NCBI RefSeq assembly: GCF_030013205.1
Contig: NZ_CP122648.1
Origin: Escherichia coli
Lineage (GTDB): Bacteria > Pseudomonadota > Gammaproteobacteria > Enterobacterales > Enterobacteriaceae
Length of the DNA: 64,000 nt
Direction: 5' to 3' (one strand)
Below, piece by piece: positions 1-3,000 of this stretch. Numbering within the stretch: position 1 is the first letter of the stretch; every line of letters begins with the position of its first letter. A program made the position numbers.

Positions 1-3000
1 CTCTGGTGCCTGAACAAATCATCGTTGAATTTACTGAAAGTGAAGTCATATCTCGGTTTGATGAGCTTGCAGAAGCGATTAAATCGCTTAAGGCTGCCGG
101 TATCAGTGTAGCAATTGATCATTTTGGCGCAGGTTTTGCCGGTTTGTTACTCCTGTCACGCTTCCAGCCTGACAGAATTAAAATCAGTCAGGAATTGATT
201 ACCAATGTTCATAAAAGCGGGCCACGGCAGGCAATTATTCAAGCGATCATAAAATGCTGTACATCACTTGAAATTCAAGTCAGTGCTATGGGCGTGGCAA
301 CACCAGAAGAGTGGATGTGGCTTGAATCCGCAGGAATTGAGATGTTTCAGGGAGATCTGTTTGCTAAAGCTAAATTGAATGGTATCCCTTCCATAGCGTG
401 GCCAGAGAAAAAATAATTTTCAGCACATTCTTTCACATGATTTCAGTAAATCATCGTGAAAATGAATACGTTATGTTTAAATTTAATCCACATTAAAAAT
501 AATGTTTCATCCAATTTAGCTGAAATCTTATTTATACTTTGTACAATTTTAGCGTATATTGTACAAAGTATTATTGGGTCGTGTACAGGCGACGGAGATT
601 TGTGACCGCAAGGAGGAATTGTGGCTTATTACAGCATTGGTGATGTTGCTGAACGTTGCGGGATTAATCCTGTCACTCTCCGGGCCTGGCAACGCCGCTA
701 CGGTTTGTTAAAACCACAGCGCAGTGAAGGCGGACACCGACTCTTTGATGAAGAAGACATACAACGCATCGAAGAGATCAAGCGTTGGATAAGTAATGGC
801 GTCCCTGTAGGCAAAGTTAAAGCATTACTGGAAACCACCAGCCAGGATACGGAAGATGACTGGAGCCGCCTGCAAGAAGAGATGATGTCAATTCTTCGTA
901 TGGCTAATCCTGCCAAACTACGCGCGAGAATTATTTCACTGGGTCGAGAGTACCCGGTAGATCAATTGATTAATCATGTTTACCTTCCTGTTCGCCAGCG
1001 TCTCGTGCTTGATCACAACACCTCCCGCATTATGAGCAGTATGTTTGACGGCGCATTAATTGAATACGCAGCAGCCTCGCTTTTCGAAATGCGCCGTAAG
1101 CCCGGTAAAGAAGCCATTCTGATGGCGTGGAATGTTGAAGAGAGAGCACGATTGTGGCTGGAAGCATGGCGTTTATCATTGGCAGGATGGCATATTTCTG
1201 TCCTTGCTGATCCCATTGAAGCGCCGCGCCCGGAACTGTTCCCGACGCAAACATTGATTGTCTGGACAGGCATGGCACCAACGAGAAGGCAAAACGAACT
1301 TTTACAACACTGGGGTGAGCAAGGTTATAAAGTCATCTTTCATGCCCCCTAATTTCACCTTTATCCCGCCCCTTAGACAGAATCTTATAATCTGAACCCA
1401 CAACAGCGTTTGTACCGGAGCTGGTCCGTTGCAAAATGCTCACCGGGAGAATTCAGGTAATCCCCCTTTCACACTTTGTACATATCACAGCCAAAGGACA
1501 GACCAGATTGAAGTGGTAAAACCGATCGTGCACACTACGCAGTCTCACAACTAACAAGAGGTTATTATCCTGATGGATCAGGTTGTTGTTTTTCAAAAGA
1601 TGTTTGAGCAAGTGAGAAAAGAGCAAAACTTCTCCTGGTTTTATTCAGAATTAAAACATCACCGTATTGCACATTACATTTATTATCTGGCTACGGATAA
1701 CATCAGAATTATTACTCACGATGACACGGTTTTGTTATTAAGAGGAACCAGGAACCTGTTAAAAGTTAGTACGACCAAGAACCCTGCTAAAATAAAAGAG
1801 GCAGCATTGCTTCATATTTCCGGAAAATCTACATTTCGGGAATACTGTTCAACACTGGCAGGCGCTGGCGTTTTCCGGTGGGTTACTGATGTTAATCATA
1901 ACAAACGCAGTTACTACGCCATTGATAATACGCTTTTATATATTGAAGATGTAGAAAATAATAAACCATTAATCTAGCTAAAGTTGGATGCTTAAAAAAT
2001 GCTTCATGATTCAGTAAGGCATTAGCATAATGGAAATAAAAGTGCAGAGACTATTCATATGGATGAGTAATACTATCTTTTTATTGCCACCCATAAATAA
2101 TCACCAGATCAATACTATCAACTTGATATTTGAAATGTGATCACTTGACTTTTGATACGTTATTTTATAGCGGTTAACATATTTATAAATAAATATCCTC
2201 CGGCATAGCCGGAGGTTTTTCAAATGCGCCTATAAGGCTCTCTTACCAGCCGCGCCCTAACAGGCGCACACGATCTGACATTTGCATCCAACTTCGTTAC
2301 TTACGGCCCGTAAACGGGCTGCCCGGATAGGGAATCGATAACTGCTCTCCCATTTTATCCTCTTCAAGCTGGTGCTTTATGTAATCCTGTATCTTCGCCG
2401 TGTTCTTACCCACTGTATCGACGTAGTACCCTCTGCACCAGAACTCCCTGTTCCTGTATTTGAATTTCAAATCACCAAACTGCTCGTAAAGCATCAGACT
2501 GCTTTTCCCTTTCAGATATCCCATAAACCCGGATACGCTCATTTTAGGCGGGATCTCCACAAGCATATGGATATGATCTGCACAGCATTCAGCTTCCAGA
2601 ATCCGTACGCTTTTCCACTCACACAGCTTTCTCAAAATACTGCCTATTGCTCTACGCTTCTCTCTGTAGAACACCTGTCTTCGGTATTTTGGCGCAAAAA
2701 CCATGTGATATTTACAGTTCCATCGGGTGTGCGCTAAGCTCTTTTCGTTCCCCATTGGGACCCCCTTTTGATTTCTTGTTTGACACTTGCAGTTGCCAGA
2801 CCGCAAGGTGTTTTAACAAATCAAAAGGGGTTTTAATAACTGGCTCAAAGCTGAAAGCTTTCCGGAACCCCCAGCCTAGCTGGGGGTTTTCTGTGCACAA
2901 AAACAACGGGCGTGTTATACGCCCGTTTCAATATTTAACACATGTAGAGATTACATGTTCTTGATGATCGCATCACCAAACTCGCTGCATTTCAGCAGTT

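What the first reader, a model, noticed from the sequence alone, without database searches (positions are those of the whole stretch)
2190..2895. IS200-family element inserted directly beside the icd terminator
Seen in sequence: a 152-aa ORF (2297..2755, minus strand) with the IS200 TnpA hallmarks (HTRWNCKYH... HIHMLVEIPP, an HUH motif) lies inside a roughly 700-bp unit bounded by GC-rich hairpins at 2197..2221 and 2868..2890. The outer hairpin ends only about 5-15 bp from the icd terminator hairpin (2905..2927). Established knowledge: IS200/IS605 elements are about 0.7 kb, encode only a small Y1 transposase, carry subterminal hairpins and insert without target duplication. IS200 is absent from K-12 and occurs only sporadically in natural E. 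coli isolates. Inference: a strain-specific insertion that can serve as a lineage marker; its orientation places the icd terminator between icd and the element, so polar effects on icd are unlikely.
Basis: partly seen in the sequence, partly recalled or inferred. Interest (0 to 1): 0.45.

Follow-up and report, generated by a model that had tools for sequence, protein, structure and literature searches.

The report
IS200 beside icd terminator; iraM deleted
This is an ordinary, intact copy of the known insertion sequence IS200C sitting directly after the icd transcription terminator, a kind of site this IS group homes to, and in this strain recombination between two such copies has probably deleted the neighbouring iraM gene.

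Summary
Window 2187/2190..2898 (minus strand) is an intact 709-712 bp IS200C. It has tnpA (2297..2755, HUH H61-I62-H63, Tyr125), LE and RE hairpins, the SD-sequestering 5'UTR stem-loop and an Rfam STnc490/art200 match.

It is not a rare, strain-specific marker. About 36% of 5,426 complete E. coli genomes carry IS200. About 7% carry it at this locus, in three arrangements with at least three IS alleles.

The position beside the terminator is not chance. In 118 independent IS200-type left-end junctions from many phyla, the element starts right after a hairpin plus T-tract (TTTNTT^). The IS right end has the same form.

In iraM+ E. coli the icd terminator has a twin copy on the far side of the ymgK-iraM islet. 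IS200 occurs beside either twin or both.

The window's flanks are 100% identical to O139:H1-like pig strains that carry iraM. Its IS is identical to both copies in a double-IS relative, with the left flank of one copy and the right flank of the other. The best explanation is IS200 x IS200 homologous recombination that removed ymgK-iraM.

The element is already known. The interest is modest.

The parts
2187..2898 (-). IS200C insertion sequence. The core is 2190..2898 (709 bp), plus 0-3 T (A on the + strand) of ambiguous origin at the RE. The left end is at 2898 and the right end at 2187-2190.
   Evidence: The block is absent from the empty sites in K-12 and Nissle. It is 99-100% identical to copies annotated IS200C. 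BLAST alignment breakpoints at the flanks agree. There is a single copy in the 64-kb window.
2297..2755 (-). tnpA, a 152-aa Y1 (HUH) transposase. It carries HUH at H61-I62-H63 and the catalytic Tyr125.
   Evidence: PF01797, 1e-37; NF033573, 147 bits. The nucleotide sequence is identical to the tnpA genes of L005, which are annotated WP_025210499.1.
2866..2888 (-). LE palindrome AACCCCCAGCTAGGCTGGGGGTT, equivalent to IS200 nt 12-34. It is the presumed TnpA-binding subterminal hairpin and has been described as a bidirectional terminator that shields tnpA from incoming transcription.
   Evidence: DNA fold -11.7 kcal/mol, z = -3.45. It forms positions 1-23 of the Rfam STnc490 match. Its function is taken from PMC4513863.
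2762..2830 (-). tnpA 5'UTR stem-loop that pairs the Shine-Dalgarno sequence (AAGGGGGU, 2760..2767) with CCCCUUUU. This is translational repression of tnpA.
   Evidence: RNA fold -38 kcal/mol, z = -3.95. Rfam structure. Described for IS200 at nt 69-138 in PMC4513863.
2747..2836 (+). Predicted art200 (STnc490) antisense sRNA, about 90 nt, complementary to the tnpA 5'UTR and its first three codons. The coordinates are approximate and placed by homology only.
   Evidence: PMC4513863, plus the 146-bit Rfam RF01405 match at 2765..2888. The Rfam model matches the tnpA-sense strand.
2197..2215 (-). RE subterminal hairpin CCTCCGGCTATGCCGGAGG. It looks like a terminator on both strands.
   Evidence: -10 kcal/mol, z = -5.97; listed on both strands.
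2187..2193 (-). RE terminal motif TTTATT(T). It has the same form as the target motif TTTNTT and is the presumed right cleavage site.
   Evidence: In Y. pestis tandem copies...GGAGGATATTTATT(T) is followed directly by GTGCCC of the next copy.
2899..2927 (-). icd intrinsic terminator, which is also the target site. The hairpin is 2905..2927 (9-bp stem, 5-nt loop) and the tract GTTTTT is 2899..2904. The IS starts immediately after it.
   Evidence: The same hairpin is present uninterrupted in the empty sites.
2951..4201 (-). icd (isocitrate dehydrogenase, 416 aa). It is intact and co-oriented with tnpA.
   Evidence: The region is 100% identical to L002.
2030..2140 (+). ymgL small ORF, convergent with the IS. 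The IS RE lies 47-50 bp beyond its stop codon. In the closest relatives, ymgK and iraM follow the IS on the icd side; here they are absent.
   Evidence: Annotation of L001, L002 and L005 transferred by alignment. The islet is absent from the whole window.

Best explanation
The element is an intact, potentially mobile copy of IS200C. It belongs to the IS200 group of the IS200/IS605 family, which uses a Y1 HUH transposase and single-strand 'peel and paste' transposition.

It lies where IS200-type elements characteristically integrate: on the strand that carries a hairpin followed by a T-tract (an intrinsic terminator), immediately 3' of TTTNTT. tnpA therefore ends up co-oriented with the upstream gene (icd) and downstream of that gene's terminator. 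The element's own right end (hairpin plus ATATTTATT) has the same form as the target.

By analogy with IS608, the A-rich bases just 5' of the LE and RE hairpin feet (GAAAA) would act as guides that pair with the T-rich cleavage and target sites. This step is inferred.

In iraM+ E. coli the roughly 50-bp icd terminator segment occurs twice, as direct repeats flanking the ~0.86-kb ymgK-iraM islet. I call the copy next to ymgL the distal twin (Hd) and the copy next to icd the proximal twin (Hp). Both twins have been hit by IS200.

The window's clone (flanks 100% identical to O139:H1-like pig and wild-boar isolates) most likely descended from a double-IS ancestor: ymgL-IS200-Hd-ymgK-iraM-IS200-Hp-icd. 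RecA-type recombination between the two identical, directly oriented IS200 copies would then have deleted one IS together with Hd, ymgK and iraM. That leaves ymgL-IS200-Hp-icd, as seen here.

Shown: the identity of the element, its anatomy, the empty sites, the census, the existence of the double-IS relative and the exact sequence match, and the terminator association.

Inferred: the guide pairing, the source of the single-stranded DNA, and the recombination route.

Confidence by part: about 0.98 that it is IS200C; about 0.8 that the terminator adjacency reflects targeting; about 0.6-0.65 for the IS x IS deletion route.
For: Identity and anatomy:
- Pfam, NCBIfam and Rfam matches.
- PGAP annotation of near-identical copies as IS200C.
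- Hairpins and the 5'UTR fold, matching the published IS200 map (PMC4513863).

Mobility:
- Empty sites in K-12 and Nissle.
- Copies at other loci in E. coli.
- Up to 36 matching places per genome.

Census in 5,426 genomes, from junction queries with at least 80% coverage:
- ymgL|IS junction: 274 genomes.
- IS|Hp-icd junction: 214.
- IS|Hd-ymgK junction: 162.
- iraM|IS junction: 101.
- Empty site without iraM: 1,048.
- These numbers give a self-consistent estimate of about 112 genomes with the window's arrangement.

Deletion route:
- Double-IS genomes exist: L004 and L005.
- The window's IS equals both L005 copies at every base. Its left flank equals the flank of the L005 distal copy, and its right flank equals the flank of the L005 proximal copy.
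- The window's flanks are 100% identical to L002 (2,189 + 2,551 bp) and 100% / 99.97% identical to L005.
- iraM and ymgK are absent from the whole window.

Terminator targeting:
- In 118 unique LE flanks from Yersinia, Vibrio, Brenneria, Dickeya, Edwardsiella, Pluralibacter, Bacillota, Desulfovibrionaceae, Oxalobacter and other genomes, position -1 is T in 118/118 and position -2 is T in 116/118.
- The 45 nt upstream fold at -10 kcal/mol or stronger in 97.5% of cases, against 21% at all T-run ends.
- Against intergenic-like TTTNTT sites in the same loci the figure is 19%. At -14 kcal/mol or stronger the comparison is 89% against 13%, Fisher p = 1.5e-58.
- Three other E. coli copies show the same arrangement.
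- Y. pestis tandem copies sit right after the RE of another copy.

Strand:
- GC skew of the window's + strand is mostly negative. The element's top strand is therefore the lagging-strand template, as reported for the family (PMC5027513).
Against: - The crossover point cannot be seen, because the two parental IS copies are identical. The IS x IS route therefore cannot be distinguished by sequence from recombination within the 15 bp shared by Hd and Hp next to the IS in a single-IS ancestor such as L002. L002's IS differs from the window's at one base, 2546.
- No genome in the collection has the window's exact arrangement at 100% identity. The best same-arrangement hits are 99.0% and carry a different IS allele and a different hairpin loop. 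The deletion is therefore inferred from relatives, not observed in a series.
- The exact IS ends are uncertain by 1-3 nt. No single end definition reproduces all four insertion events from the K-12-type empty sites.
- The terminator association could be partly due to survival of neutral intergenic insertions rather than targeting. About half of the 118 sites come from one Y. pestis genome.
- The IS608 paradigm explains a short target motif but not a requirement for a hairpin.
Confidence: 0.7

Rival explanations
1. A single-IS ancestor (ymgL-IS200-Hd-ymgK-iraM-Hp-icd, as in strain W13-16) lost the islet by recombination between the two ~50-bp terminator twins Hd and Hp, not between two IS copies.
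For: L002 has exactly this arrangement, and its flanks are 100% identical to the window. Hd and Hp are direct repeats. 1,048 genomes lack the islet without any IS, so repeat-mediated loss or absence of the islet is common.
Against: The window keeps the Hp-type bases (TT at 2915-2916, T at 2934). The crossover would therefore have to fall in the 15 identical bases between the IS end and the first Hd/Hp difference, a much poorer substrate than about 724 bp of identity. L002's IS differs from the window's at 2546, whereas both L005 copies match perfectly.
Confidence: 0.15
2. A fresh, independent IS200 insertion into an iraM-less empty site (ymgL-H-icd), as probably happened in B2/ST131-type genomes such as LH85-a.
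For: Empty iraM-less sites with the same hairpin sequence exist, for example in Nissle. The site is a demonstrated hot spot with several IS alleles. About 112 genomes share the arrangement.
Against: The window's flanks are 100% identical over 4.7 kb to iraM+ genomes L002 and L005. They are only 98-99% identical to the iraM-less, IS-bearing L001. This route needs two events (islet loss, then insertion at the same nucleotide with the same three-A junction) where one recombination event suffices.
Confidence: 0.1
3. Assembly artefact. The source genome actually has the double-IS arrangement, and the assembler collapsed the two identical IS200 copies, dropping Hd-ymgK-iraM.
For: The two copies in the closest double-IS relative are identical and only 0.86 kb apart. 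No database genome of this clone shows the collapsed form.
Against: The 64-kb window runs straight through an IS that has about 20 matching places in related genomes. That suggests a long-read or finished assembly, in which a 2.3-kb structure would be spanned by single reads. No read data were available to test this.
Confidence: 0.05

Closest known systems
IS200 / IS200C of Salmonella and E. coli (IS200 group, IS200/IS605 family)
   Same: About 0.71 kb with a single 152-aa Y1 transposase gene. It has the LE palindrome (nt 12-34), the SD-sequestering 5'UTR stem-loop (nt 69-138), the art200/STnc490 region and the RE hairpin, and it has no terminal inverted repeats. It is 99% or more identical to copies annotated IS200C.
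   Different: No functional difference was seen. The inserted block is 709-712 bp against the 707 bp quoted for Salmonella IS200. Its allele differs by 5-8 SNPs from IS200C copies at the same locus in other lineages.
IS1541 of Yersinia pestis / Y. pseudotuberculosis
   Same: The 23-nt LE palindrome is identical, and the ends have the same forms: GTGCNCAGAA at the left and ...CCGGAGGATATTTATT at the right. The position is the same, right after a terminator-like hairpin plus T-tract. From memory (paper not held), Odaert et al. 1998, J Bacteriol 180:178, noted terminator-like stem-loops at 8 of 14 IS1541 sites.
   Different: It is a different host and a much higher copy number. About 55 of the loci returned come from the one Y. 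pestis genome scanned. The roughly 85% sequence identity to IS200 is quoted from memory.
IS608 (Helicobacter pylori) and ISDra2, the mechanistic paradigms of the family
   Same: HUH/Tyr transposase, subterminal hairpins, strand-specific insertion 3' of a short motif without duplication, and the top strand on the lagging-strand template (PMC5027513 and PMC2806898; GC skew).
   Different: IS608 and ISDra2 use TTAC and TTGAT and carry tnpB. Here the motif is T-rich (TTTNTT) and is almost always preceded by a hairpin. The IS608 model does not require a hairpin, and there is no tnpB or omega RNA here.
Bacterial class C (IIC) group II introns
   Same: These are mobile elements that home to the 3' side of intrinsic terminator stem-loops. 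This is from established knowledge and was not tested here.
   Different: Their chemistry is unrelated (a retroelement ribozyme against an HUH DNA transposase). The resemblance is in the niche only.

Membership tests
IS200/IS605 family, IS200 group (IS200C) | Encodes a Y1 (HUH) transposase of the Y1_Tnp / transpos_IS200 family | tested here: met
   PF01797 E = 1.1e-37. NF033573 147 bits against a cut-off of 55.
IS200/IS605 family, IS200 group (IS200C) | Intact catalytic residues: the HUH motif and the catalytic tyrosine | tested here: met
   H61-I62-H63 and Y125 were read from the translation. Y125F is the dead mutant in PMC4513863.
IS200/IS605 family, IS200 group (IS200C) | Subterminal hairpins at both ends instead of terminal inverted repeats | tested here: met
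   LE 2866..2888 and RE 2197..2215 fold with z = -3.45 and -5.97. The two hairpins are unrelated in sequence.
IS200/IS605 family, IS200 group (IS200C) | Insertion without target-site duplication, 3' of a short specific motif and in a fixed orientation | tested here: inconclusive
   Comparison with empty sites shows no duplication beyond a 0-3 nt A/T-run ambiguity. The motif TTTNTT sits 5' of the LE in 118/118 junctions. Junctions vary by 1-2 T between events, so an exact zero duplication cannot be proved.
IS200/IS605 family, IS200 group (IS200C) | IS200-specific left-end regulatory RNA structures (terminator palindrome, SD-sequestering stem-loop, art200 region) | tested here: met
   Rfam RF01405 146 bits, with the full-length model matched. 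RNA fold. Published map in PMC4513863.
IS200/IS605 family, IS200 group (IS200C) | Evidence of mobility: the same element at different loci, and occupied versus empty sites | tested here: met
   Up to 36 matching places per genome; on chromosomes and plasmids. Other loci. Empty sites.
IS200/IS605 family, IS200 group (IS200C) | Transposase-dependent excision as a single-strand circle, and integration | not testable with these tools
   This needs an in vivo or in vitro assay.
IS605 / IS1341 groups (tnpB-carrying members) | Presence of tnpB and its omega RNA | tested here: not met
   There is only one ORF in a 0.71-kb element, and no TnpB-associated RNA family was found in the Rfam scan. It is therefore a tnpA-only IS200-group element.

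The most novel reading that the evidence does not exclude
IS200-group transposases may recognise intrinsic terminators as structural mimics of their own right end: a hairpin followed by TTTNTT, with A-rich guide bases 5' of the hairpin feet pairing to the T-tract. This would make them terminator-homing elements across phyla. Homopolymer register slippage would explain the 1-3 nt variability at the ends. Duplicated terminators such as the icd twins would become recurrent double-hit sites that set up IS-mediated deletions of the genes between them (here iraM). The association has been noted only partially: in the 2025-26 preprint 10.1101/2025.07.22.666184, and, from memory, for IS1541 in 1998. 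A hairpin requirement is not part of the IS608-based model of the family.
Probability: 0.5. Interest if true: 0.45.

Novelty: already known. Interest (0 to 1): 0.27.

Why it matters
For this genome, the finding corrects the annotation story in three ways. The IS is a known element at a recurrent hot spot. Its presence alone is not a reliable lineage marker. What is specific to this strain is the loss of iraM and ymgK. IraM is the anti-adaptor that stabilises RpoS under Mg2+ limitation (from established knowledge), and both genes are present in its 100%-identical relatives.

More generally, the data give a clean, quantitative picture of IS200-type elements landing immediately after terminators, in a fixed orientation, in many phyla. 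This explains why these elements are so well tolerated: they are transcriptionally insulated and extragenic. It also suggests a testable target-recognition rule beyond the short-motif model derived from IS608.

Tried and rejected
- ISfinder is not available, so the element's name rests on PGAP annotation of near-identical copies and on the Pfam, NCBIfam and Rfam matches.
- Odaert 1998 (PMC106867) and Beuzon & Casadesus 1997 (PMC146608) are not held. What I say about them is from memory.
- My first strict terminator classifier (perfect stems, loops of 3-8) under-called obvious imperfect hairpins: 60% of IS sites against 2.4% of controls. I therefore also used folding energy, with two controls.
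- I tried to fix single-nucleotide IS ends from four insertion events and the empty sites. No single definition fits all of them, so the ends are given with 1-3 nt uncertainty.
- I considered a TnpA-catalysed deletion (left end of one copy joined to the other copy). I rejected it as non-canonical, because producing the window's arrangement would need joining at two left-end cleavage sites.
- I considered that BLAST alignments of other IS200 copies running 10-17 nt into the 'aaaaacaacggg' flank meant the hairpin is carried by the IS. I rejected this: those copies abut different terminator-like hairpins that merely share the A-run and a C/G-rich stem.
- The number of double-IS genomes could not be derived from the junction counts.
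Full report
**1. What is there**

The window is E. coli chromosome. The gene order is bluF' (6..416), bluR (621..1352), ycgX (1573..1977), ymgL (2030..2140), the element, icd (2951..4201, minus strand), then rluE, nudJ and mnmA.

The 152-aa ORF at 2297..2755 (minus strand) is a Y1/HUH transposase. 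It matches Pfam PF01797 at 1.1e-37 and NCBIfam transpos_IS200 at 147 bits against a cut-off of 55. It carries H61-I62-H63 and Tyr125.

Rfam's STnc490 model matches 2765..2888 over its full length at 146 bits. Three structures fold well above shuffled controls:
- the LE palindrome at 2866..2888;
- the RE hairpin at 2197..2215;
- the long 5'UTR stem-loop at 2762..2830, which pairs the Shine-Dalgarno sequence.

This is the published anatomy of IS200: a terminator palindrome at nt 12-34, a stem-loop at nt 69-138, and the antisense sRNA art200 (PMC4513863). PGAP names near-identical copies 'IS200C'.

**2. Ends and empty sites**

K-12 and Nissle 1917 carry the uninterrupted site catatttat-AAAAA-caacggg. 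The window has catatttat-AAA-[T2190...C2898]-AAAAA-caacggg. The inserted block is therefore 712 bp, with a 3-nt ambiguity.

On the element's own strand the sequence reads: terminator hairpin, GTTTTT, then GTGCACAG...GGATATTTATT(T), then ataaatatg. There is no duplication beyond the homopolymer ambiguity.

**3. Census**

A near-full IS200 is present in 1,951 of 5,426 complete E. coli genomes, with up to 36 matching places per genome. K-12 has none at this locus, and the K-12 rows match only the flank.

In iraM+ genomes the icd terminator segment occurs twice, flanking the ymgK-iraM islet. I call the copy next to ymgL the distal twin (Hd) and the copy next to icd the proximal twin (Hp). Junction-specific queries, counting hits with at least 80% coverage, gave:

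| Junction | Genomes |
|---|---|
| ymgL \| IS | 274 |
| IS \| Hp-icd (the window's junction) | 214 |
| IS \| Hd-ymgK | 162 |
| iraM \| IS | 101 |
| Empty site without iraM | 1,048 |

These numbers are mutually consistent. They imply about 112 genomes with the window's arrangement and about 376 (7%) with IS200 somewhere at this locus.

**4. The twin terminators and the double-IS genomes**

In iraM+ genomes a segment of about 50 bp containing the icd terminator occurs twice as direct repeats, Hd and Hp, flanking the 0.86-kb ymgK-iraM islet. IS200 is found beside Hd (L002), and beside both twins in the same orientation (L004, L005).

The IS alleles differ between lineages by 5-8 SNPs. Within each double-IS genome the two copies are identical. 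The number of A residues at the RE junction also differs between events. The site has therefore been hit repeatedly, and the proximal site has been hit at least twice.

**5. Origin of the window's arrangement**

The window's flanks are 100% identical to L002 (O139:H1 W13-16) over 2,189 + 2,551 bp. They are 100% and 99.97% identical to L005 (K_EC180). Both relatives carry iraM.

The window's IS is identical at every base to both IS copies of L005. Its left flank is that of the L005 distal copy. Its right flank (Hp plus the icd 3' end) is that of the L005 proximal copy. The islet is absent from the whole window.

This is exactly the product expected from homologous recombination between the two directly repeated IS200 copies.

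Three rivals are less parsimonious or less likely, but none is excluded:
- recombination in the 15 bp shared by Hd and Hp in a single-IS ancestor;
- a fresh insertion into an iraM-less site;
- assembly collapse of the two copies.

No genome in the collection has this arrangement with this allele. The best same-arrangement hits are 99.0% identical and carry a different IS allele and a different hairpin loop.

**6. Why it sits beside a terminator**

An exact-match scan of one genome per species for the 23-nt LE palindrome returned 120 loci from many phyla. Across 118 unique left-end junctions:
- the base before the element is T in 118/118, and the one before that is T in 116/118, giving the consensus TTTNTT^;
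- the 45 nt upstream fold at -10 kcal/mol or stronger in 97.5% of cases, against 21% at all T-run ends;
- against intergenic-like TTTNTT sites in the same loci the figure is 19%; at -14 kcal/mol or stronger it is 89% against 13%, p = 1.5e-58.

Three further E. coli copies show the same arrangement. The element's RE (hairpin plus ATATTTATT) has the same form as the target, and Y. pestis tandem copies sit directly after another copy's RE.

The exact register and the fixed orientation argue for targeting rather than mere survival of neutral insertions. Selection may still contribute.

A 2025-26 preprint reports terminator-like sequences over-represented upstream of ISs, most strongly for IS200/IS605. 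From memory, Odaert et al. 1998 noted the same for IS1541; that paper is not held.

By analogy with IS608, I infer that the GAAAA bases 5' of each hairpin foot guide cleavage at T-rich sites. A homopolymeric guide and target would also explain the 1-3 nt variability of the junctions.

The element's top strand is the icd coding strand. Given the mostly negative GC skew of the window's + strand, that is the lagging-strand template, as reported for the family (PMC5027513).

**7. Consequences**

icd is intact, and its terminator hairpin and GTTTTT tract are retained. Transcripts reading through from icd would enter tnpA in the sense direction. They would first meet the IS200 LE palindrome, which is described as a terminator (PMC4513863).

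The real strain-specific change is the loss of ymgK and iraM.

**8. Verdict**

This is a known element (IS200C) at a recurrent, terminator-associated hot spot. Interest is modest.

Noticed in passing
L002:3249-3300 and L002:4110-4160; L003 (K-12) 18440-18490 and 17590-17640; window 2899-2945: In iraM+ E. coli the ymgK-iraM islet (about 0.86 kb) is flanked by two direct copies of a roughly 50-bp segment that contains the icd terminator hairpin. 1,048 of 5,426 genomes (B2 strains such as Nissle and ATCC 11775) have a single copy and no islet. This looks like the footprint of an old integration at the icd 3' attachment region, or of repeat-mediated loss.
   Followed up: partly
window 2765-2888 (minus strand): The Rfam STnc490 model matches the tnpA-sense strand (terminator palindrome plus 5'UTR stem-loop). 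PMC4513863, however, describes STnc490/art200 as antisense to the tnpA 5'UTR. The Rfam hit's strand should not be taken as the sRNA's strand.
   Followed up: partly
L006-L066 (MAG contigs of Oxalobacter, Bacillota, Mailhella/Desulfovibrio, Peptococcaceae, Saccharibacteria, Elusimicrobiaceae): The 23-nt LE palindrome AACCCCCAGCTAGGCTGGGGGTT is conserved exactly in IS200-like elements of distant phyla, although the adjacent element sequence differs. Many of these contigs end about 90-110 nt inside the element, so the repeat breaks assemblies. This suggests a strong constraint on the hairpin, or recent horizontal spread.
   Followed up: no
L071, L072, L074, L088, L118 (Yersinia pestis NCTC5923): Head-to-tail tandem IS1541 copies occur. 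The RE of one copy (...CCGGAGGATATTTATT or ...TTTATTT) is followed directly by GTGCCCAGAA of the next copy. The junction differs by one T between instances.
   Followed up: partly
L001:5634-6418 (strain LH85-a): In this genome, an STM2901-family gene and a DUF1493 gene lie between icd and rluE. They are absent from the window and from K-12, so this is another small indel at the icd locus.
   Followed up: no
L004 versus L005: In each double-IS genome the two IS200 copies are identical to each other but differ by 8 SNPs between the two genomes. This means either independent local hops in each lineage or gene conversion between the copies. It was not resolved.
   Followed up: partly
PMC3082878: [quoted passage not shown] This may be another terminator-associated insertion, one that destroys attenuation control.
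   Followed up: no
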